From contig CAMBFC010000007.1 of the NCBI GenBank assembly GCA_945865905.1, forward strand, positions 7,706 through 71,705: 64,000 bases of DNA, written 5' to 3'. The notes beneath the pieces were generated by a model, which ran no database searches, was not told the DNA's origin, and saw only the letters and a program-made list of their open reading frames with translations. Every line of letters starts with the position of its first letter. Position 1 is the first letter of the stretch. Position numbers and translations under genes: made by a program. Origin of the DNA: Rickettsia typhi (GTDB lineage Bacteria > Pseudomonadota > Alphaproteobacteria > Rickettsiales > UBA1997). Below are positions 4,515 to 63,921 of this stretch, in pieces.

Positions 4515-4630
4515 GTGTTTGGATCTCGATTTACAGATGAATCATCTCCTGCTTATTGATTTTATTTCGCGCGCAAGCACAGCTACATAAAATCAATAAG
4601 CAGGAGATGATTCGTCTGTAACGCACAGCG
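4515..4630 (+). repeat. Family-A hairpin repeat, copy A1
   Basis: Terminus GTGTTTGGATCTCGATTT. Hairpin 4533-4619 has 32-nt arms with one T:G, around the conserved loop ATTTCGCGCGCAAGCACAGCTACAT. Tail TAACGCACAGC. Confidence 0.9.
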
Positions 4631-4671
4631 TTTGAGGCATTTATCGCTAAACAAAAACTTTAAACAACATC

Positions 4672-12197: not shown

Positions 12198-12568
12198 TAG
12201 ATCTCGTTTTACAGCTTAATTATCTGTTGAAATTGAATTTATTTATCGCAAGTAAATCATTTTATTTTGCGCGCAAGCACAGCTACATAAAATGATTTAC
12301 TTGCGATAAATAAATTCAATTTCAACAGATAATTAAGCTGTAACGCACCAATTTTGTTAGTTTGTTTTAAATATTCTGCAAAGGACTTGTTGTTAGTTTT
12401 TTGCAAAAGATTTACGCATTATTCGTAAGATAGATTGATTGTCTAATTAGGGGCTCTGAGGCGAGTTCTGCTTTTATCGCAAGCTACGCTTGCTTTAATC
12501 AGATGAAAGCGGTGTCTGAGCAGCAGAGCCCCTAATTAGACAATCAATCTATCGTGAAAACGAGATCC
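12198..12568. repeat. Composite ~370-bp repeat element: terminus, family-A hairpin A2, spacer, family-B hairpin B1 (inverted core), inverted terminus
   Basis: TAGATCTCGTTTT at 12198 and AAAACGAGATC ending at 12567 are inverted repeats. A2 hairpin 12211-12341 has perfect 54-nt arms around ATTTTGCGCGCAAGCACAGCTACAT. B1 hairpin is 12429-12553. Confidence 0.9.
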
Positions 12569-12621
12569 AAAAACACGCACCACAAAAAATAGTTAAACAT
12601 TAATAATAAGGTTAAAATTGA

Positions 12622-13440
12622 ATGATTAATCGCAAAACTTCAGTTCATCTACAAGATTTTCCTGACACTTCTTTTTTTGATAGCAATCAAGAATTAGTCG
12701 CCGATATGGATCTTGTTCGTGCTATATGCAGCACGGCTCTATCAATTCGTGATAATAAAAATTTGCGCGTGAGATTGCCGTTAAATGAGTTGAAAGTGAT
12801 TGGTAAAATTGCCAATAGAATATTGCCTTTCAAAGAAATTATCGCCGAAGAAGTAAATGTAAAAAATATTGTAATTGAAGAAAAAATCGAAGGAACTGCT
12901 GAGTTAAAATTGCAAATTAATTTCAAAAAAATTGGTGCAAAATATGGTTCGCGAGTTAAAGAAATCAATGAGGCAGCGCGCAAAGGTGAATGGAAAAAAA
13001 TCGCCGAAAAAGAAATTGAAATTGCTGGCATAAAATTGATTGATGATGAGTTTGAAATTAAATTGATGACCAATAATCAGAACGATAAAAAATTTGTGAT
13101 TGCAGCACTTTCAACCAATGATTGCTTGGTTTCGCTTGATATTGAAGTTTCGCAAGAACTTGCTGATGAAGGTGTGGCGCGTGATATTGTTCGCGCAATT
13201 CAACAAAGCCGCAAAACCGCTGATCTTAATGTTTCTGATCGAATTGAAATCATGCTTTTTTCACCAAATAAAATGATTTTGCAAGTGGCAGAAAAATTTT
13301 CTTCTTATATTTTGCAACAGGTTTTAGGCTTGAATTTAAAGGTTGCAAGTGATATCGAAGAAGTTAAGTCGCAAGCAAAATTTTTCTCCGAAACAAAAAT
13401 TGATGATGGCGAAATTGCCATCGGTATCAGCAATAAATAA
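12622..13440 (+). CDS. ileS: Isoleucyl-tRNA synthetase C-terminal fragment (N-terminally truncated; pseudogene or split gene)
   Basis: 272-aa ORF starting ...SVHLQDFPDTS..., matching only the last quarter (anticodon-binding/C-terminal region) of type-2 IleRS. The upstream sequence is repeat element, not ileS. Confidence 0.6.
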   Translation: MINRKTSVHLQDFPDTSFFDSNQELVADMDLVRAICSTALSIRDNKNLRVRLPLNELKVIGKIANRILPFKEIIAEEVNVKNIVIEEKIEGTAELKLQINFKKIGAKYGSRVKEINEAARKGEWKKIAEKEIEIAGIKLIDDEFEIKLMTNNQNDKKFVIAALSTNDCLVSLDIEVSQELADEGVARDIVRAIQQSRKTADLNVSDRIEIMLFSPNKMILQVAEKFSSYILQQVLGLNLKVASDIEEVKSQAKFFSETKIDDGEIAIGISNK

Positions 13441-20431: not shown

Positions 20432-20655
20432 GTTATAAATTTTTGTGCTATTCTATATTGAGAAAATTCAGTTAATTTAGAAAGTAAGTTAATTAGAAGG
20501 AGAGGCTCTGCTGCTCAGACACCGCGTTCATCTGATTAAAGCAAGCGTAGCTTGCGATGAAACGCAGAACTTGCCTCAGAGCCTCTCCTCCTAATTAACT
20601 TACTTTCTAAATTAACTGAATTTTCTCAATATAGAATAGCACAAAAATTTATAAC
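20432..20655 (+). repeat. Family-B hairpin repeat, copy B2, with ~79-nt arms filling the lgt/queC divergent intergenic region
   Basis: Core GGCTCTGCTGCTCAGACACCGCGTTCATCTGATTAAAGCAAGCGTAGCTTGCGATGAAACGCAGAACTTGCCTCAGAGCC, flanked by inverted arms with a single mismatch. Confidence 0.92.
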
Positions 20656-25873: not shown

Positions 25874-26240
25874 TAGATCTCGTCCTCGGCAAGGCTTGAA
25901 GTGAGGGGCTCTGCTGCTCAGACACCGCACCCATCTGATTTAAGCGAGCGTAGCTCGCGATGGGATGCAGAACTCGCCTCAGAGCCCCTCACTTCAAGCC
26001 TTGCCTTTCTTGGGCTTTTGTGGGTTTTTGGCTTTTTGGGTTTGGATTTGTGCATTGATTTATCTGGTATTAATGGTTTTTACACATTATTCGTAAGATA
26101 GATTGATTGTTTGGGGAAGGGGCTCTGAGGCGACTTCTGCGCTTCATCGCAAGCTACGCTTGCTTTAATCAGATGAACTCGGTGTCTGAGCAGCAGAGCC
26201 CCTTCCCCAAACAATCAATCTATTACAAAAACGAGATCTA
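25874..26240. repeat. Composite ~367-bp repeat element: terminus, family-B hairpin B3 (+), T/G-rich spacer, family-B hairpin B4 (-), inverted terminus
   Basis: TAGATCTCGT at 25874 and ACGAGATCTA at 26231-26240 are inverted repeats. B3 is 25888-26005 with perfect 26-nt arms. B4 is 26098-26223 with perfect 30-nt arms. Confidence 0.92.
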
Positions 26241-34762: not shown

Positions 34763-34875
34763 TTTAGATTGTGCCTCACAGATAAATTATTGAGCGGAGG
34801 TCATTTTATTTCGCACGCAAGCACAGCTACATAAAACGACCTTCGCTCAATAATTTATCTGTAACGAAAAGTGCG
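34763..34875 (+). repeat. Family-A hairpin repeat, copy A3
   Basis: Degenerate terminus TTTTAGATTG. Hairpin 34778-34862 has 31-nt arms with two transition mismatches around ATTTCGCACGCAAGCACAGCTACAT. Tail TAACG. Confidence 0.88.
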
Positions 34876-34903: not shown

Positions 34904-36019
34904 ATGAAAAACCTAATAGGATTAACCAAAGAGCAACTAACGCAAGAGCTTATAAACATTGGCGAGAAGCCCTTTCGTGCCGCGCAAATTTGGAATTGGA
35001 TTTATGTTCGTGGTGTGCAAGATTTTTCTGCGATGAGCAACATTTCGAAGGCGACGCAAGAAGTTTTGGCAAAAAATTTTACCCTAGCGCGGCCCATGAT
35101 CCACAAGGATTTGCTCGCTTCTGATGGCACAAGAAAATGGCTGGTAAAATTTGCCGATGGCAATCAAGTTGAGGCAGTTTTTATTCCTGAAGAAACTCGC
35201 GGCACGCTCTGCATCTCGTCGCAAGTCGGTTGCACTTTGGCTTGCAAATTTTGTCATACTGGCACGCAAACTTTGGTGCGCAACCTTGAAGCCTCTGAAA
35301 TTGTGGGTCAAATCATGATCGCTAAAGATTTATTGGATGATTGGAAAAAAATCGGTGTTGGCGATGTAGCAGCTTCACCATCGCGGCAAAAAATCACCAA
35401 TGTAGTGTTTATGGGCATGGGCGAGCCTTTTTATAATTATGAAAATGTTGCCGCAACCGCAAAAATCCTTAATAATGCCGATGGCTTGAGTTTATCTTCG
35501 CGAAGAATCACAATTTCTACTTCGGGCTTAGTGCCAGAAATTTTACGCATGTCAAAAGAGCTAAAAACTGCTCTAGCAATATCGCTGCACGCCACGAATG
35601 ACGAGCTTAGAACCAATATTATGGCGATCAATAAAAGATACCCTCTCGATGAATTAATGAAGGCCTGCAAAATTTATAACAATGAAAATCCGGGGCAAAA
35701 AGTTACTTTTGAATATGTGTTGCTGCGCGATGTTAATGATCGCGATGAACATGCGCGCGAGCTGATTTCACTGATTAATAAATATAATTTAAATGCTAAA
35801 ATAAACCTGATTCCATTTAATCCGTGGATGTCTTGCGGCTATGAAAGATCTAGCGATGAACGCATTGCGCAATTTCAAAAAATTCTGAAAAATAGTGATG
35901 TAGTGGCGCCAATTCGCAAAACTCGTGGTGATGATGTGATGGCGGCTTGCGGTCAGTTAAAATCTGATTCGCAGCGCATTTCTAAGCGCCAAAAAAAAGA
36001 TGATGTGGTTGGTGGTTGA
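34904..36019 (+). CDS. rlmN: 23S rRNA/tRNA adenine-C2 methyltransferase RlmN (radical SAM)
   Basis: FRAAQIWNWIY N-terminus, radical-SAM cluster CTLACKFCHTG, C-terminal AACGQL. Confidence 0.93.
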   Translation: MKNLIGLTKEQLTQELINIGEKPFRAAQIWNWIYVRGVQDFSAMSNISKATQEVLAKNFTLARPMIHKDLLASDGTRKWLVKFADGNQVEAVFIPEETRGTLCISSQVGCTLACKFCHTGTQTLVRNLEASEIVGQIMIAKDLLDDWKKIGVGDVAASPSRQKITNVVFMGMGEPFYNYENVAATAKILNNADGLSLSSRRITISTSGLVPEILRMSKELKTALAISLHATNDELRTNIMAINKRYPLDELMKACKIYNNENPGQKVTFEYVLLRDVNDRDEHARELISLINKYNLNAKINLIPFNPWMSCGYERSSDERIAQFQKILKNSDVVAPIRKTRGDDVMAACGQLKSDSQRISKRQKKDDVVGG

Positions 36020-36160
36020 AAAAGATGGGGATGGGAGTTGGATTGGGATGCTCTGCTGCTCAGACACCGCGCCCATCTGATTTAAGCAAGCGTAGCTTGC
36101 GATGGGACGCAGAACTCGCCTCAGAGCATCCCAATCCAACTCCCATCCCCATCTTTTTCA
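36017..36160 (+). repeat. Family-B hairpin repeat, copy B5 (perfect 39-nt arms; left arm starts on the rlmN stop codon)
   Basis: TGAAAAAGATGGGGATGGGAGTTGGATTGGGATGCTCTG ... core ... CAGAGCATCCCAATCCAACTCCCATCCCCATCTTTTTCA. Confidence 0.92.
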
Positions 36161-36275
36161 ATTCTATTTTTTTTGGCAAAAAAATAGAAGATTAAATAAA
36201 GATTGTTATTTGCTTTTACAAATTCCTATAATTAATTTCGACTTAATAGTTATTGAATAATTAATTAAAATTTTT

Positions 36276-38174
36276 ATGTCAAAAGCCCATCAAGATTTAT
36301 CTGTTGCAGCCCTGCCAGCAAAAATTCCATCTCCTGATGAATTAGCGACAATTATGGAGGCTAATTCTAACTCTTCAGAGGCAGATAAAGCTAGGGAGGG
36401 TTGGATCATGAGTGTTTCTAAAACCTTCTGCGCAGCAACTGCTGCCTTAATGGCTGCTGATGGAAAATTTGGTGATAAGAAAATGAATGCGACTGTGTTC
36501 GATATTTTGGATGAAGCAGAAAAAGAACATCCCGATCGAAAACAAAAAATAGCAGAATATAGAGAAATGATTCGAGCCAAAGGCTGCGGCGATGTAACAA
36601 TGTCGCAGCTTTTAAGTCATAGAAGCGGCTTAACTCAAGGCAATCATTATTTTATGCCGGGTAATTTTAGTAATGTTGAACTTTTTACTGAGTCTTATGA
36701 ATATGAAGACCCAAAAACGAAACTTCCAAAAAAGTCGGCAATTGTTACTTTCGATCCCGCTAAAAGAGGCAATGTTTTTAGCTATTGCAACCTTGGTTTT
36801 GTGCTAGCTGAAGATATGATGAGCCTTGTTGCAGATTCTGAACAAGGCTATTATGGAGAACTGCAGAACAGAATTACAAATCCTCAAAATTCTCTTGGTC
36901 TAAAACATACTAAATCAATATACGAATCAGATGAATCAAAAAAAGCTGCTAGTGAAGTTGTTAAGATTAAAGGCGCAATGTATGACTGGGGAGTTAAATC
37001 AGAAGAGACTGTTGAGCTTGATCCTTTGAAAACTACACAAAAAGGAAGCATAGCTCTTTCTGAGGGAGGTTTATGCTCAAGCGTTGGCGATCTTGAGACA
37101 TTCTATACCGAATTATCAAAATTGGCCTGCGGAATTCCAAATCTTTTGCAAACAGATCCTGCAAAAACGAGAGAAATTCACGGATTTTATCTTGATGCTT
37201 ATAAGGCGGGAGAAAAGTGTAAATCTGATTCGAATCGTGAATTATCCGTGTATTGTGCCAACCATTATTCTCTCGGCGTTATTATCGAAGCTGTTGATGA
37301 AAAAGGAAATGTAATTCCGGCTCGTGGCAATGAAGGCAAAACTCAAATTCGTTTTAATCATCTCGGAAATCAACCGGGAAATGATGCGGCAGTAAGCGCT
37401 ACAATGCCATTTTCTTTCGCAGAATTTACATCTGGAACTGCAGATTTAAAAAAAGGTGCAAGCCCTAAATTAGATGCGTCTATAAGTCAGAAAGATGTGC
37501 TTGCCAAAGATTCTCTGCTTACAATCGTAAACTGTGACTATATCGCAGAAATTGATAAATATTTTTCTAGTAAATGTGATAAAAAAACGGATAAGCATTA
37601 TAATGATGTCGATGATGAAGGTTATAATTGGCGAACATATAATCAATATTGGGAAGCGGCTCGCACAGGCAAACCTGTAGCTCAGGCTTGGCAAGCCGCC
37701 TTAACTGATGGAGACAGATTGCCATCAAACTTTAGTGAATTTCACGATGAGATTTGTGCGGCATATGCTCCAGCTAATGAAGCTTTGGCCACTTATTTTA
37801 AAGAACATTTTTGTAATGAAGATGGAGTTGTGGATAGAGCTAAAGTTAAAGAAAAACTTAAAACTGCCGCAGATTTTGAAGCAGTTAAAAAAGATATGGG
37901 TATTGAACCATTGTTGCAAACAGCGAGAGAGAAAACTCAGGAAATTTTCGCAAAATCCGATGAGCAGTTGAGATTAGAAACATTAGAAAGGCAAAACAAA
38001 ATAAAGCTGTCAAAAGCTGTTGCAACTAGCTTTGTAGAAGCTTTTGCGGATAAAATGCAACCAGATGATGAAAGAAGTTTTGTCGAAAGACTAAATCTTA
38101 AACCGACAGATCATAAATCAAGGGTCACTTCGGAAAGACTTAGCGATTCTGGATCAACGCCGCCACCTCATTAA
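36276..38174 (+). CDS. Serine hydrolase of the beta-lactamase/family-VIII esterase fold with ~230-aa unknown C-terminal extension
   Basis: S-x-x-K at SVSK (res 46-49), LLSHRSGL, Y-x-N at YCN. No signal peptide is visible. 632 aa. Confidence 0.6.
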   Translation: MSKAHQDLSVAALPAKIPSPDELATIMEANSNSSEADKAREGWIMSVSKTFCAATAALMAADGKFGDKKMNATVFDILDEAEKEHPDRKQKIAEYREMIRAKGCGDVTMSQLLSHRSGLTQGNHYFMPGNFSNVELFTESYEYEDPKTKLPKKSAIVTFDPAKRGNVFSYCNLGFVLAEDMMSLVADSEQGYYGELQNRITNPQNSLGLKHTKSIYESDESKKAASEVVKIKGAMYDWGVKSEETVELDPLKTTQKGSIALSEGGLCSSVGDLETFYTELSKLACGIPNLLQTDPAKTREIHGFYLDAYKAGEKCKSDSNRELSVYCANHYSLGVIIEAVDEKGNVIPARGNEGKTQIRFNHLGNQPGNDAAVSATMPFSFAEFTSGTADLKKGASPKLDASISQKDVLAKDSLLTIVNCDYIAEIDKYFSSKCDKKTDKHYNDVDDEGYNWRTYNQYWEAARTGKPVAQAWQAALTDGDRLPSNFSEFHDEICAAYAPANEALATYFKEHFCNEDGVVDRAKVKEKLKTAADFEAVKKDMGIEPLLQTAREKTQEIFAKSDEQLRLETLERQNKIKLSKAVATSFVEAFADKMQPDDERSFVERLNLKPTDHKSRVTSERLSDSGSTPPPH

Positions 38175-38198
38175 CTTTTTTTAAAAATTCTCAAGAAA

Positions 38199-38340
38199 GG
38201 CTGAAGAGTCAGTTAGGTAATGCTTGAATGCGAGTTCCATTTTCATCGCAAGCTACGCTTGCTTTAATTCAGATGAAAAGGGTGTCTGAGCAGGCGAGTA
38301 TTACCTAACTGGCTCTTCAGCCGAGGGCAAGATCTATAGT
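38199..38340 (-). repeat. Family-B hairpin repeat, copy B6 (degenerate core) plus degenerate terminus
   Basis: Arms GGCTGAAGAGTCAGTTAGGTAATGCT/AGTATTACCTAACTGGCTCTTCAGCC (two transitions). Apical core CATCGCAAGCTACGCTTGCTTTAATTCAGATG is retained. Tail CCGAGGGCAAGATCTA. Confidence 0.8.
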
Positions 38341-49980: not shown

Positions 49981-50076
49981 AAAATCACTAAACCATAAGG
50001 TGACACTTCACGGTTTAATAATTTTGGCAATTCTAATAAATGGCTTTTACTTATTTAAAATTTGCCATTCGTGGCA

Positions 50077-50178
50077 GATAAATCATCGACTGCTTATTGA
50101 TTTTATGTAGCTGTGCTTGCGCGCGAAATAAAATCAATAAGCAGTCGATGATTTATCGTTAAAGGAGATCTAAACACA
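50077..50178 (-). repeat. Family-A hairpin repeat, copy A4 (inverted orientation)
   Basis: Hairpin 50077-50157 has perfect 29-nt arms around ATGTAGCTGTGCTTGCGCGCGAAAT. Terminus GGAGATCTAAACACA on the right. Confidence 0.9.
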
Positions 50179-54329: not shown

Positions 54330-54507
54330 GTAGAGAATTAGGTTTGAGTTATAAATTATCTCGTGAGTATGGGAGAGGAGCTCTGAGGCGAGTTCTGCGC
54401 TTCATCGCAAGCTACGCTTGCTTAAATCAGATGAACGCGGTGTCTGAGCAGCAGAGCTCCTCTCCCATACTCACGAGATAATTTATAACTAAAACCTAAT
54501 TCTCTAC
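54330..54507 (-). repeat. Family-B hairpin repeat, copy B7 (56-nt arms; right arm overlaps the last 3 codons plus stop of the downstream gene)
   Basis: Arms GTAGAGAATTAGGTTTGAGTTATAAATTATCTCGTGAGTATGGGAGAGGAGCTCTG and its complement, with one G:A mismatch. Typical inverted B core. Confidence 0.92.
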
Positions 54508-59721: not shown

Positions 59722-61434
59722 ATGATAAAATCCCCTCAATTTGATATAGTAATTCCTGTCCATAAAAAAGACCTGGCCATTCTTGAATACTGCATTGAAG
59801 CAGCTCGCAAGAAGATTGTGGGCGTTAGAAGAATCATCACTATTTCACAAGAAAAATACACCGATAGTGCAGAATGGTTTCCTGAATCACAATTTCCTTT
59901 TTCAATGGATTTTGTGCGCCAATATACCGGCGGATCTTGTGGTTGGTATTTTCAGCAGCTTCTCAAGCTTTATGCCCCGCTAGTTATTCCTGATATTTCT
60001 GAAAATGTTTTGATTCTTGATAGTGATACGGTTTTTTTTCGTAAAACCAAAATGTTTGATAATTGCGGTCGGCCATTTTATAACACCAGCAAAGATACTA
60101 AAATATGTCACAAGCCTTTTGATGTTGAGGCTGAAGAGCATATTAATAAATTATGGCCAAAAATCTCGCGTACCAATCTTCCCGTTGAATTTAAAGAAAT
60201 TTCTGGTGTTTGCCATAGCATGATGTTCAATCGTGAGATAATCACCGAATTGTTCGATAAGGTCGAAAAATATGATGACAGCGGCGATAAATTTTTTAAA
60301 ATTTTTTTAAAGCATGCTAACCATGGCCACTCTGCCTCAGAATATCAAATTTATTTTAATTTTTTACTAATTTTTCATAGCAAAAAAATTGCGATGAGAA
60401 AATTAAAATATAAAAATACCGCCGATCTCAATATTAAAAAATATCGTAAGCGCCTAAAATATAGTTATTGCTCTTTCCATTCTTACTTGCGAAAAGGACT
60501 TTGCAATTCTCCGCGCGTGAAAATAGAAAATTTCTTCAAAAAAATCTGGCACAAATTATTTGAAGTAGAGCAGTGGAATATTGGCATTGCAAATTGCAAT
60601 ATTGCACAATTTTTAACAATGCCAAATCAAAAAATTCATTGGCTAAAAAACACGCCACTAAGTGAATTTAGAGCCGATCCTTTTGGTTTGATAAAAGATA
60701 ATAAAAAATTTATCTTTTTTGAAAAATACGATCGCATCAAAAGAAAAGGAAAAATTTCTATTTTAGAAATAGGCGAAAATCTTAAAATTATAAGTGAAAA
60801 AGATGTTTTGGAAAAAAATCACCATTTGTCGTATCCTTATATTTTTTCTCATGAGGCAAAAAATTACGCCTTAGTTGAAAGCCATCGAGCCAAAGAATTG
60901 GTGCTTTACGAGGTTTTGCAAGATTTGCAGCTTAAAAAAATCAAAGTGATTTTTGATAATTTGGAGGTAGTTGATCCATCGATTATTTTTTATGAAAATA
61001 GATTTTGGCTATTCTTTTCTTTAGCCAATGAGGGTGATGCCAATCTTTATATTGCATATGCAGATACATTGGAAGATGTATGGAAAATGCATCCAAAAAA
61101 TCCAGTAAAAAGCGATGTTGCTTCGGCGCGTTCTGCTGGTGAAATTTTTACGCATAATAAAATTTTATATAGACCGGCGCAAAATTGTTCTCGCAGTTAT
61201 GGTGCGGCAATCATGATTAATAAAATCATACAATTAACAACAGAAGAATTTGAAGAAATTGAAGAAATGGAAATCGCGCCAAATCAATTGGGGCAATACC
61301 CTCTCGGTCTTCACAATATTGCATCTTTAGGAAAAAATGTTACGATTATTGATGGTAAAAAAAGATTTTTCGTGCCACATAAAATTTTTATTTATCTCGC
61401 TTTTAAAGTGAGAAAATTCTTAATCAAGTTGTAA
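59722..61434 (+). CDS. Two-domain protein: N-terminal GT-A-fold nucleotide-sugar transferase-like domain (DxD) plus unknown C-terminal domain
   Basis: 570 aa. FDIVIPVHKKDL...GWYFQQLLKLYAPLVIPDISENVLILDSDTVFF is a GT-A-like pattern with DSD. The C-terminal half (ADPF..., LSYPYIF..., DPSIIFYENRFWLFFS) looks like a beta-rich domain. Confidence 0.5.
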   Translation: MIKSPQFDIVIPVHKKDLAILEYCIEAARKKIVGVRRIITISQEKYTDSAEWFPESQFPFSMDFVRQYTGGSCGWYFQQLLKLYAPLVIPDISENVLILDSDTVFFRKTKMFDNCGRPFYNTSKDTKICHKPFDVEAEEHINKLWPKISRTNLPVEFKEISGVCHSMMFNREIITELFDKVEKYDDSGDKFFKIFLKHANHGHSASEYQIYFNFLLIFHSKKIAMRKLKYKNTADLNIKKYRKRLKYSYCSFHSYLRKGLCNSPRVKIENFFKKIWHKLFEVEQWNIGIANCNIAQFLTMPNQKIHWLKNTPLSEFRADPFGLIKDNKKFIFFEKYDRIKRKGKISILEIGENLKIISEKDVLEKNHHLSYPYIFSHEAKNYALVESHRAKELVLYEVLQDLQLKKIKVIFDNLEVVDPSIIFYENRFWLFFSLANEGDANLYIAYADTLEDVWKMHPKNPVKSDVASARSAGEIFTHNKILYRPAQNCSRSYGAAIMINKIIQLTTEEFEEIEEMEIAPNQLGQYPLGLHNIASLGKNVTIIDGKKRFFVPHKIFIYLAFKVRKFLIKL

Positions 61435-63784: not shown

Positions 63785-63921
63785 TTTTATTTAGATCTTA
63801 TGCCCTTGCTTAAGCCTGCCTTCAACAAATAATTCACCTGCTGTTTATTAATTTTATTTCGCGCGCAAGCACAGCTACATAAAATCAATAAACAGCAGGT
63901 GAATTATTTGTAACGCACAGC
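63785..63921 (+). repeat. Family-A hairpin repeat, copy A5
   Basis: Degenerate terminus TTTAGATCTTATG. Hairpin 63826-63910 has 31-nt arms with one A:C around ATTTCGCGCGCAAGCACAGCTACAT. Tail TAACGCACAGC. Confidence 0.9.

What the first reader, a model, noticed from the sequence alone, without database searches (positions are those of the whole stretch)
4515..4630. Family-A hairpin repeats: invariant 25-nt loop, arms that change by paired substitutions (5 copies)
The copies are A1 4533-4619(+), A2 12211-12341(+), A3 34778-34862(+), A4 50077-50157(-) and A5 63826-63910(+). Each has the loop ATTTCGCGCGCAAGCACAGCTACAT, with single substitutions in A2 and A3, closed by TTTTA/TAAAA and then arms of 29 to 54 nt. 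A2 has perfect 54-nt arms with a sequence unlike the others. A1 and A4 arms are clearly homologous but differ by a double substitution that is mirrored in the partner arm: ATCATCTCCTG/CAGGAGATGAT versus ATCATCGACTG/CAGTCGATGAT. So changes in one arm are copied or compensated in the other. Four copies carry the tail TAACG(CACAGC). The loop shares GTAGC...TTGCG with the apical part of family B (A reverse complement ATGTAGCTGTGCTTGCGCGCG versus B GCGTAGCTTGCGATG), so the two families are probably related.
Basis: seen in the sequence. Interest (0 to 1): 0.72.

Follow-up and report, generated by a model that had tools for sequence, protein, structure and literature searches.

The report
Mobile DNA hairpins with self-correcting arms
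These are copies of a small, undescribed mobile DNA hairpin in an uncultured freshwater Rickettsiales bacterium, with a nearly fixed loop and two arms that stay complementary because one arm is re-copied from the other; this is a new variant of a known kind of selfish repeat.

Summary
The 25-nt loop occurs five times in the window (0 expected by chance), always at the tip of a 28-31 bp stem (54 bp in A2).

Across 31 distinct copies from this and related genomes:
- 97.3% of stem positions are standard pairs.
- 22 of 28 pairs change on both sides.
- G-U-type pairs are almost absent.

Family A is a non-coding, strictly intergenic, lineage-restricted repeat of the MITE/REPIN type. It has a TA|GATCT terminal motif, a conserved stem base, a free stem middle, a near-invariant apical loop and one of two 3' tails. 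Family B (7 copies in the window) uses the same ends around a different 66-nt head.

Copies are present or absent between close relatives. They are missing from three sister lineages, and adjacent copies always sit tail-to-tail.

The arms co-evolve at the DNA level:
- Orthologous copies differ by mirrored substitutions (P about 5e-5).
- A 79-nt arm pair stays 99% complementary despite 12.5% divergence from its ortholog.
- One strain allele has an arm re-copied from its partner, deleting A2.

No transposase, RNA family or viral match was found. The role of the conserved loop is inferred only: a recognition site for mobilisation or for a host protein. Interest is moderate.

The parts
4520..4629 (+). 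A1. TG|GATCTCG terminal motif, stem 4533-4563 / 4589-4619, loop 4564-4588, tail CTGTAACGCACAGC.
   Evidence: Predicted as a DNA hairpin of -36.9 kcal/mol, z = -9.7. Orthologous copy in the Baikal MAG, L007.
4636..4670 (-). Hairpin-less remnant of a tail-to-tail partner of A1. It keeps the terminal motif and stem base (GTTTAGCGATAAAT) only.
   Evidence: L007 has a complete A copy here. The difference is an 87-nt indel bounded by the element's own direct repeat TTTAGCGATAAAT / TTTAACGAATAAT.
12198..12349 (+). A2. TA|GATCTCG, 54-nt perfect arms, loop 12264-12288 (C5T), tail CTGTAACGCACC.
   Evidence: Absent from Baikal-lineage orthologous sites L066/L069. Absent from strain alleles L071/L072. Present in L067/L068.
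12415..12569 (-). B1. A family B copy lying tail-to-tail with A2. It has the same terminal motif (TG|GATCTCG) and tail (CTTACGAATAATGCG).
20432..20655 (.). B2. Family B core between 79-nt arms that fill the lgt-queC spacer.
   Evidence: The arms differ at 1 of 79 positions although the ortholog arm differs at 10 of 80. The core is inverted relative to ortholog L069.
25874..26014 (+). B3. TA|GATCTCGTCCTCG motif and 26-nt arms.
26083..26240 (-). B4. Lies tail-to-tail with B3. Tail CTTACGAATAATGTG.
34765..34866 (+). A3. TA|GATTGTG, loop 34808-34832 (G8A), tail CTGTAACG.
   Evidence: The site is empty in three outgroup lineages. The Baikal ortholog L003 has a different arm sequence in the same frame.
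36016..36161 (+). B5. 40-nt perfect arms. The 5' arm starts in the rlmN stop codon.
38190..38336 (-). B6. A diverged family B copy with TA|GATCTTGCCCTCG.
50064..50172 (-). A4. TA|GATCTCC, loop 50105-50129, tail CTGCCACGAATGG.
54330..54507 (-). B7. 56-nt arms that overlap the 3' end of the solute-binding protein gene.
63792..63921 (+). A5. TA|GATCT, a 28-nt extra spacer, loop 63856-63880, tail TTGTAACGCACAGC.
   Evidence: Its ortholog L018 differs in the stem only by one mirrored A-T to G-C change.

Best explanation
Family A is a lineage-specific, non-coding, non-autonomous mobile DNA hairpin in the chromosome of an uncultured freshwater Rickettsiales bacterium. It is of the MITE/REPIN ('foldback') type.

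Anatomy of a copy, 5' to 3':
- a TA|GATCT-type terminal motif;
- about 8 variable bases;
- a 28-31 bp Watson-Crick stem. Its base (GATAAAT/ATTTATC) and top (TTTT/AAAA) are fixed, and its middle (about 17 bp) is free;
- an almost invariant 25-nt apical loop;
- one of two 3' tails (GTAACGCAC... or TTAACGAATAATGCG).

Family B uses the same ends around a different, internally structured 66-nt head.

Shown:
- Copies are gained and lost between close relatives.
- Adjacent copies always sit tail-to-tail. Many single copies carry the decayed stub of such a partner, so the doublet may be the unit that moves.
- The two arms evolve in concert.

Inferred:
- The concerted evolution happens at the DNA level. 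When the hairpin forms in single-stranded DNA, one arm is used as template for the other (intra-strand template switching or short-tract conversion). A mutation is then either erased or mirrored, and arms can also grow into flanking DNA.
- The loop and the ends are kept by purifying selection because they are the cis-sites needed for mobilisation by an enzyme encoded elsewhere in the genome, or for binding a host protein.
For: Identity and distribution
- Five loop matches in the window against 0 expected.
- Among 185,579 species genomes, the loop is found only in one relative, the MAG Baikal-deep-G64, with 13 matches.
- It occurs on 11 freshwater metagenome contigs.
- All genes in the window are housekeeping genes.

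Structure
- The 28-bp stem is 97.3% paired, against 68.7% in shuffles. 22 of 28 pairs change on both sides: 232 double-sided changes against 4 one-sided.
- Mismatches are A.C at least as often as G.T.
- The family B core shows the same pattern: 12 double-sided changes and no wobble changes.

Mobility
- An 87-nt presence/absence difference beside A1.
- The A3 site is empty in three outgroup lineages, and about 64 kb of outgroup DNA scanned then holds no A or B copy.
- The A2+B1 block is absent from Baikal-lineage genomes, where udg and the next gene overlap.
- An A copy lies between tatA and the kinase gene in the Baikal lineage, where the window has a 9-nt spacer.
- Another repeat is nested inside an A arm.
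- A related 155-nt element with 23-nt terminal inverted repeats carrying the same TAGATCT..GTCCTCG motif is present in an outgroup.
- Nine independent adjacent pairs are all tail-to-tail. Chance is about 0.25^9.

DNA-level arm copying
- Orthologous copies differ by 5 mirrored Watson-Crick changes where 0.7 are expected (P = 5.5e-5).
- B2 arms differ at 1 of 79 positions, while the ortholog arm differs at 10 of 80 including an indel (P = 5e-4).
- In alleles L071/L072, the left arm of B1 is an exact complement of the right arm. This includes the terminal motif and a mirrored C-to-T change, and A2 is deleted.
- The B2 core is flipped between lineages.

Loop constraint
- My count from the alignments is 3 changes in about 150 loop positions across six orthologous pairs. 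Their flanks are 5-12% diverged.

Precedents
- Compensatory changes in the hairpin of REPINs (PMC3116915).
- Concerted evolution of palindrome arms attributed to template switching (PMC6649704).
Against: - No transposase or recombinase was seen in the window or in annotated related loci. The rest of the genome could not be searched.
- Target-site duplication is not established. TA adjoins GATCT in about half of the copies, and only one empty/filled site fits a TA duplication.
- Single A copies have only an imperfect inverted match between the 5' motif and the 3' tail.
- In-situ conservation of the loop between orthologs is not what a purely selfish, decaying repeat predicts. It hints at a host-level function or at conversion between copies.
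- At two orthologous sites (A3/L003 and L004/L025) the whole variable arm differs, including mirrored length changes. This needs replacement or re-insertion rather than point-wise copying.
- The asymmetric internal loops of the family B core are not erased by the proposed arm copying.
- The L071/L072 allele comes from one project and one assembler, so a graph artefact is not fully excluded.
Confidence: 0.6

Rival explanations
1. The hairpins are genes or cis-elements for a structured RNA, such as a small RNA, a 3'-UTR stabiliser or a bidirectional terminator. Selection on the RNA fold would keep the stem paired, and the loop would bind a protein.
For: - Very strong covariation and very stable predicted folds.
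- The loop is conserved in situ between orthologs.
- All five window A copies lie just 3' of a co-oriented gene.
- The A/T-rich stem base (GATAAAT...ATTTATC) resembles the A-tract and U-tract of a bidirectional terminator.
Against: - Wobble pairs are almost absent: 4 one-sided against 232 double-sided changes. A.C mismatches are at least as common as G.T, so neither strand shows RNA-type tolerance.
- Over all loci the orientation relative to the upstream gene is 19 same against 13 opposite.
- A1 and A5 lie downstream of canonical terminators (sequence).
- No promoter-like site recurs, and there is no Rfam match.
- Perfect arms of 45-79 nt, mirrored indels and a flipped core are not products of RNA-level selection.
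- The families are absent from sister lineages.
Confidence: 0.12
2. The elements were once mobile and are now domesticated DNA sites. They would act as cruciform or hairpin binding sites for a host protein, as proposed for REP/BIME with gyrase or a nucleoid protein. Host-level selection would keep the loop at each locus.
For: - The loop evolves several times more slowly than the flanks at orthologous loci.
- The inverted doublet organisation with two tail types recalls BIMEs, which are made of alternating REP types (my own knowledge of REP/BIME organisation).
- Density is high: 12 elements in 64 kb.
Against: - Copies differ in presence between strains and close species, and they are missing from sister lineages that have the same gene order. 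No individual site is required.
- No candidate binding protein is identified.
- Nothing tested here separates this explanation from conservation of a cis-site needed for mobility.
Confidence: 0.15
3. The apical loop is the nick or recognition site of a hairpin-specific single-strand DNA enzyme (HUH/Y1-type or similar). New copies would be made through a single-stranded intermediate whose second arm is synthesised by fold-back priming on the TTTT/AAAA closure.
For: - An invariant loop on a sequence-free stem is the pattern seen at rolling-circle and HUH origins (my own knowledge).
- The TTTT(A)...(T)AAAA closure is invariant in the 31 aligned copies.
- Pairing is Watson-Crick only.
- Arms of variable length include flanking DNA.
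Against: - The same A.C mismatch next to the loop is shared by paralogous copies at different loci: L006+, L007+, A5/L018 and L020. Both arms therefore seem to be copied as they are during spread, not regenerated.
- Mirrored changes occur in situ at orthologous loci without transposition.
- No such enzyme was found.
Confidence: 0.1

Closest known systems
REPINs (REP doublets forming hairpins, mobilised by RAYT transposases; PMC3116915)
   Same: - Short, non-coding and strictly extragenic, in many copies.
- The unit is an inverted doublet, and singlets look like decayed remnants.
- A hairpin-forming middle part varies in sequence with frequent compensatory changes.
- Asymmetric deletions leave a stub of one end.
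   Different: - The conservation pattern is inverted here. The apical loop is the most conserved part and the arms are free, whereas in REPINs the arms (REPs) are conserved and the spacer is free.
- Each hairpin is about 85 nt rather than a 20-40 nt REP.
- There is no GTAG or CGTC tag at the foot of the stem. GTAG occurs only inside the loop.
- No RAYT gene could be looked for.
Bacterial MITEs with TA-flanked terminal inverted repeats, such as Neisseria Correia elements, and the Rickettsia palindromic elements (RPE) (review PMC10969869; other details from my own knowledge)
   Same: - Size of 100-150 bp, no coding capacity, and a fold into one long hairpin.
- Lineage-restricted bursts with presence/absence between relatives.
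- TA next to the terminal motif.
- The host is a member of the Rickettsiales, as for RPEs.
   Different: - Clear terminal inverted repeats are seen only in one family B allele and in the outgroup relative. Single A copies end in a tail that matches the 5' motif only imperfectly.
- TA duplication is not proven.
- None of the 44 copies examined lies inside a gene, whereas RPEs often sit in frame within genes.
- Two interchangeable apical heads occur on one set of ends.
Concerted evolution of palindrome arms by template switching (quasi-palindrome correction in bacteria; perfect coding palindromes in Nematomorpha mitochondria, PMC6649704)
   Same: - Arms remain perfect while diverging between lineages.
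- Paired substitutions are seen between close relatives.
- Arms extend over time.
   Different: Those cases are not an interspersed family with a conserved loop and conserved ends. They describe a mechanism rather than an element.
Hairpin origins and nick sites of HUH enzymes (rolling-circle plasmids, CRESS-DNA viruses, IS200/IS605 ends)
   Same: A conserved loop or foot sequence on a stem that only needs to pair.
   Different: - Those occur in one or two copies per replicon next to the enzyme gene.
- Here there are dozens of chromosomal copies and no enzyme gene in view.
- There is no sequence resemblance to nick motifs that I can recall.

Membership tests
MITE | Small, non-coding, multi-copy and interspersed. 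| tested here: met
   Copies are 105-150 bp. There are 5 A and 7 B copies in 64 kb, all between housekeeping genes.
MITE | Terminal inverted repeats. | tested here: inconclusive
   Clear in the B1 allele of L071/L072 (45-nt arms including GGATCTCGTTTTCAC) and in the outgroup relative (23 nt, 87%). Single A copies show only a partial match (TCGTT/AACGA) between the 5' motif and the 3' tail, by reading.
MITE | Target-site duplication. | tested here: inconclusive
   TA precedes GATCT in about 17 of 32 copies (read). One empty/filled comparison is compatible with a TA duplication. The other sites are too diverged or rearranged.
MITE | Insertion polymorphism between related genomes. | tested here: met
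MITE | A cognate transposase encoded elsewhere whose ends match the element. | not testable with these tools
No transposase appears in about 64 kb of window or in the annotated related loci.
REP / REPIN | A 20-40 nt imperfect palindrome with GTAG or CGTC at the 5' foot. | tested here: not met
   Stems are 28-54 bp with a 25-nt loop. The foot is GATAAAT or ACAGAT. GTAG occurs only inside the loop, on the minus strand.
REP / REPIN | Inverted doublets as the replicative unit, with singlets as remnants. | tested here: met
   Nine independent adjacent pairs are all tail-to-tail. Stubs of partners lie beside A1, the L003 copy and the L066 copy.
REP / REPIN | An associated RAYT (Y1 transposase) gene. 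| not testable with these tools
Rickettsia palindromic elements (RPE) | Frequent in-frame insertion inside protein-coding genes. | tested here: not met
   None of the 44 A and B copies examined lies inside an ORF of at least 100 aa. Two B copies only overlap gene ends.
Rickettsia palindromic elements (RPE) | Sequence similarity to the RPE-1 to RPE-8 consensus sequences. | not tested
   No RPE consensus sequence was at hand. The loop 21-mer matched no Rickettsia genome among the species representatives.
Any Rfam RNA family | A score at or above the family's gathering threshold. | tested here: not met
   Only two tRNAs pass in the window. The permissive scan gives only generic long-hairpin matches to miRNA precursor models, far below threshold and on both strands.
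Integron attC site | Inverted core sites R'' (RYYYAAC) and R' (GTTRRRY) at the base of the fold, following promoter-less cassette genes. | tested here: not met
   The motifs flanking the stem are direct repeats (TTTAACG...TTTAACG), not inverted. The neighbouring genes are rpoC, fusA, rlmN, a PBP gene and the like.

The most novel reading that the evidence does not exclude
The near-invariant apical heads (25 nt in A, 66 nt in B) are recognition or nick sites for a hairpin-specific single-strand DNA enzyme. On this reading the elements are a new class of bacterial 'self-templating' foldback transposon. Their arms carry no information of their own. They are repeatedly re-synthesised from each other, can capture flanking DNA, and interchangeable heads ride on a common set of ends.
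Probability: 0.12. Interest if true: 0.75.

Novelty: new variant of a known kind. Interest (0 to 1): 0.42.

Why it matters
- **A clean natural example.** The family shows concerted evolution of hairpin arms in a bacterial chromosome: mirrored substitutions, mirrored indels, arm growth, loop flipping and a strain-level re-copying event, all in one family.
- **An inverted conservation pattern.** Compared with REPINs and ordinary MITEs, the head is conserved and the arms are free. This points to recognition of a single-stranded loop rather than of duplex ends. If an enzyme is found, that would be a new way of mobilising small DNA.
- **A practical consequence.** These hairpins break metagenome assemblies of this lineage, because several contigs end in an arm or loop. 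They also mark strain-level variation.
- **A limit.** The lineage is uncultured, the family is narrow, and the general phenomena (mobile palindromic repeats, compensatory changes, template switching) are already known.

Tried and rejected
- **Known RNA.** The Rfam scan at gathering thresholds and a permissive scan of two element clusters found nothing specific.
- **Phage origin.** The 16-mer of the loop gave only chance hits inside viral coding sequences, and the family B core gave none.
- **Uptake-signal or other oligomer explanations.** There are no Pasteurellaceae or Neisseria uptake sequences. The over-represented 12-mers are the A and B cores themselves.
- **Own promoter or terminator.** No promoter-like or terminator-like site recurs in the elements.
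- **3'-UTR element.** The 5/5 co-orientation with the upstream gene in the window did not hold in 32 copies (19 same, 13 opposite).
- **Wobble asymmetry as evidence for a transcribed strand.** None was found.
- **The shared ends as a native intergenic motif that hairpins insert into.** An AGATCT...TAATG motif lies at the empty A3 site of outgroup L064. However, such motifs are no more frequent than chance in outgroup DNA: 2 found against about 1.2 expected.
- **Arms derived from the local empty-site sequence.** There is no support at the A3, udg or rpoC sites. Support exists only for outward growth of long arms.
- **A mobilising enzyme among the unannotated window ORFs.** Pfam and NCBIfam gave nothing relevant.
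- **Literature.** Searches for the MAG name and for Rickettsiales palindromic repeats with compensatory changes found no description of this family.

Full report
**1. Observation**

The 25-nt sequence ATTTCGCGCGCAAGCACAGCTACAT occurs five times in the window: 4564+, 12264+, 34808+, 50129- and 63856+. Two of these carry a single substitution. Dinucleotide-preserving shuffles give no matches.

The paired difference between A1 and A4, the 54-nt perfect arms of A2 and the TAACG tail on four copies are all as described. A1 is reproduced in three independent metagenome assemblies, so it is not an assembly artefact.

**2. Genomic setting**

The window is chromosomal DNA with housekeeping genes: rpoC, rpsL-rpsG-fusA, rpoD, dnaG, rlmN, dnaJ, 2-oxoacid dehydrogenases, a PBP gene and a large VirB6-like protein. 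It has 38% G+C.

A scan of 185,579 species genomes with a 21-mer of the loop found only one relative. This is the MAG 'Rickettsiales bacterium Baikal-deep-G64', with 13 matches on 10 contigs. That MAG is 88-93% identical to the window at the nucleotide level across shared genes. A scan of JGI metagenomes found 11 more genuine contigs, all from freshwater samples, plus 8 chance hits without a hairpin. The host is therefore an uncultured freshwater Rickettsiales lineage.

**3. Anatomy**

Lining up all copies gives one plan, 5' to 3':
- T(A/G)|GATCT(CG), preceded by a T/G-rich run;
- about 8 variable bases;
- ACAG or ACG;
- stem base ATAAAT;
- about 17 free bases;
- TTTT;
- the 25-nt loop;
- AAAA;
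- the complement of the free bases;
- ATTTAT;
- CT, then a tail.

The tail is either GTAACGCAC(AGC) or TTAACGAATAATGCG.

The window also holds seven copies of a second family, B. Their arms are 26-79 nt, 98-100% complementary, and surround a 66-nt core. Where their ends are intact, B copies carry the same TA|GATCTCG motif, the same stem base and the same second tail as A, in the same orientation.

A and B are therefore two heads on one chassis. In the common orientation the heads share GCAAGCNNAGCT.

Both families fold as single long hairpins with z-scores near -9 to -10. The B core has internal stems that also covary.

**4. Are paired changes the rule?**

Figures for 31 distinct A copies (alignment A4):

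| Measure | Value |
|---|---|
| Stem length | 28 bp |
| Standard pairs | 97.3% (68.7% in column shuffles; 36-46% with the partner slid) |
| Pairs that change on both sides | 22 of 28 |
| Cells with a double-sided change | 232 |
| Cells with a one-sided, wobble-type change | 4 |

The few mismatches are A.C at least as often as G.T. The B core gives 12 double-sided changes and no wobble changes. Pairing is thus essentially pure Watson-Crick and symmetric between strands. This is not the signature of selection on an RNA.

**5. Paired changes happen in place**

Four orthologous pairs of A copies were compared: A1/L007+, A5/L018, L008+/L023+ and L008-/L023-. Their flanks are 88-95% identical. They differ by 5 mirrored Watson-Crick-to-Watson-Crick changes and 6 single changes within the stems (the script also counted two positions just outside one stem). 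Random placement of the same number of changes gives 0.7 mirrored pairs, P = 5.5e-5.

For B2, the orthologous arm in a Baikal-lineage contig differs at 10 of 80 positions, including an indel. Yet the two arms in the window differ at one position only. The Poisson probability is 5e-4 if the arms evolved independently. Selection could hardly demand 78 of 79 pairs, so a copying process is the economical explanation.

**6. A copying event caught between strains**

Two assemblies from different samples, L071 and L072, encode a Udg protein identical to the window's. They lack A2, the spacer and the 3' tail of B1. Instead, the left arm of B1 is an exact complement of its right arm for 45 nt. This runs through the terminal motif GGATCTCGTTTTCAC and includes a C-to-T difference from the window that appears in both arms.

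This is what a template switch between the two inverted terminal motifs would produce. Both contigs come from one project and one assembler, so long reads should confirm it.

Two further observations fit DNA-level remodelling:
- The B2 core is inverted between the window and its ortholog, as expected for recombination between long arms.
- The 3' arm of A2 contains motifs that belong to element ends (GCGATAAAT, ACAGATAAT). Its long palindrome has therefore grown over a neighbouring remnant.

**7. Mobility and age**

Presence/absence between close relatives:
- The Baikal MAG has a full extra A copy next to A1, where the window keeps only the terminal motif and stem base. The 87-nt difference is bounded by the element's own direct repeat.
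- The A2+B1 block (about 425 nt) is absent from Baikal-lineage genomes, where udg overlaps the next gene.
- The Baikal lineage has an A copy between tatA and a kinase gene, where the window has a 9-nt spacer. That copy has another repeat inserted in its arm.

Three sister lineages have RlmN 83-88% identical to the window's. The roughly 64 kb of their DNA scanned at that step holds no A or B copy and no comparable hairpin, and the A3 site is empty in all three.

One of those sister genomes does carry, at the rlmN-dnaJ spacer, a 155-nt element with 23-nt terminal inverted repeats. These repeats bear the same TAGATCT..GTCCTCG motif as window copies B3 and B6. The ends thus define a wider MITE-like superfamily, and A and B are clade-specific members.

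At two orthologous sites (A3/L003 and L004/L025) the free part of the arms differs almost completely, with mirrored length changes, while the loop is retained. This needs replacement or re-insertion at a hot spot, not point-wise change.

**8. Arrangement**

All 44 copies examined are intergenic. Orientation relative to the upstream gene is 19 same against 13 opposite for A. The 5/5 co-orientation in the window is therefore not general.

Adjacent copies are always tail-to-tail: nine independent pairs, with chance about 4e-6. Each pair that can be read combines the two tail types. Several 'single' copies have a stub of a partner. This mirrors the REPIN picture, in which the inverted doublet is the unit and singlets are remnants (PMC3116915).

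**9. The loop**

My count from the alignments is 3 changes in about 150 loop positions over six orthologous pairs. The flanks, which are mostly coding, are 5-12% diverged. The loop therefore changes several times more slowly than its surroundings.

Three causes are possible:
- the loop is a cis-site without which a copy cannot spread, combined with high turnover;
- the loop is a site used by the host;
- copies convert one another.

The data do not separate these.

**10. What it is**

The best reading (confidence about 0.6) is a non-autonomous mobile DNA hairpin of the MITE/REPIN kind. Its arms are homogenised at the DNA level by intra-strand templating, a process described for bacterial quasi-palindromes and invoked for other perfect palindromes (PMC6649704).

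Shown here: repeat status, structure, Watson-Crick-only covariation, in-place mirrored changes, insertion polymorphism, doublet rule and clade restriction.

Inferred: the copying mechanism, the unit of movement and the role of the loop.

Not found: the enzyme, and a proven target duplication. TA next to GATCT is common, and one site fits a TA duplication.

Rivals:
- An RNA gene or terminator. The absence of wobble pairs, mixed orientation, position behind real terminators and 45-79 nt perfect arms count against it.
- A domesticated protein-binding site. It cannot be excluded, but no site is conserved across lineages.
- A fold-back-priming single-strand transposon with the loop as nick site. 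This is attractive for the conservation pattern. However, paralogous copies share the same A.C mismatch, so both arms seem to be copied as they are.

**11. Novelty and score**

No Rfam family, viral contig or paper in the library matches this family. The family is undescribed.

The class is known: small palindromic mobile repeats, with compensatory changes already reported in REPIN hairpins and concerted arm evolution reported elsewhere. What is unusual:
- the inverted conservation pattern (head fixed, arms free);
- two interchangeable heads on shared ends;
- the directly observed arm re-copying.

I rate it a new variant of a known kind, with interest about 0.4.

Noticed in passing
L004 about 450-640; L008 2560-2810 (two tandem copies); L066 545-675: A third repeat family occurs in Baikal-lineage DNA. 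It is a hairpin TATACTGAATCRACTTC..GAAGTYGATTCAGTATA, followed by TTAAATTTTTTTCGCCACACGGGTGGCG... and a second hairpin AAACCTGATT..AATCAGGTTT. In L066 it is inserted inside the 5' arm of an A copy and is flanked by TATA on both sides.
   Followed up: partly
L060 6237-6390: An outgroup genome (GCA_945872855.1) has a 155-nt element at the rlmN-dnaJ spacer. Its 23-nt terminal inverted repeats, TTCTAGATCTAGTCCTCGACAAA / TTTTTCGAGGACGTGATCTAGAA, share their motif with window copies B3 and B6. A further solo end (GGATCTAGAATTAC) follows it.
   Followed up: partly
window 36016-38336: A 632-aa gene with a weak beta-lactamase-fold match (36276-38174) lies between B5(+) and B6(-). The gene is absent from outgroup L060, where dnaJ follows rlmN directly. 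In L061/L062 a different gene occupies the place. This spacer seems to be a hot spot for gene gain, here bracketed by two inverted B copies.
   Followed up: partly
window 20511-20576 versus L069 15290-15362: The 66-nt family B core between the 79-nt arms is in opposite orientation in the two lineages, while the arms are collinear (flip-flop). The element fills the whole divergent lgt-queC spacer. That spacer is only 62 nt in an outgroup, so both promoters must now lie in or beyond the arms.
   Followed up: partly
window 59722-61434: A 570-aa gene with a GINT1_N (glycosyltransferase-like) domain sits between rpsG and fusA, inside the otherwise conserved str operon.
   Followed up: no
window 12622-13440: A free-standing 272-aa gene consists only of the C-terminal DUF5915 and part of an anticodon-binding domain of a class I tRNA ligase. 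It is conserved in all related lineages examined, so it is a real gene and not a fragment created by the neighbouring repeats.
   Followed up: partly
window about 38000: Cumulative GC skew peaks near 38 kb, and gene orientation switches from mostly plus to mostly minus there. This may be a replication terminus or an old inversion breakpoint. B6 lies at this point.
   Followed up: no
L070 2420-2470: At the rpoC-permease spacer, which is the A1 site, an outgroup has an unrelated 14-bp hairpin (ATTTAAGCAGTAGA..TCTACTGCTTAAAT). Its arm shares 10 nt (CTACTGCTTA) with the arms of some A copies, but on the other side of the loop. This is probably chance.
   Followed up: no
L064 3880-3905: At the empty A3 site of an outgroup, the spacer reads AGATCTTTCAGCATTAATGC. 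This resembles the element's two ends joined without a hairpin (AGATCT..TTAACGAATAATGC). Such motifs are not enriched in outgroup DNA overall, so this may be coincidence.
   Followed up: yes
L067, L068, L071, L072, L020, L031 contig ends: Several metagenome contigs of this lineage end inside an arm or at the loop of an A or B copy. These hairpins therefore fragment short-read assemblies and may be under-counted in MAGs.
   Followed up: no
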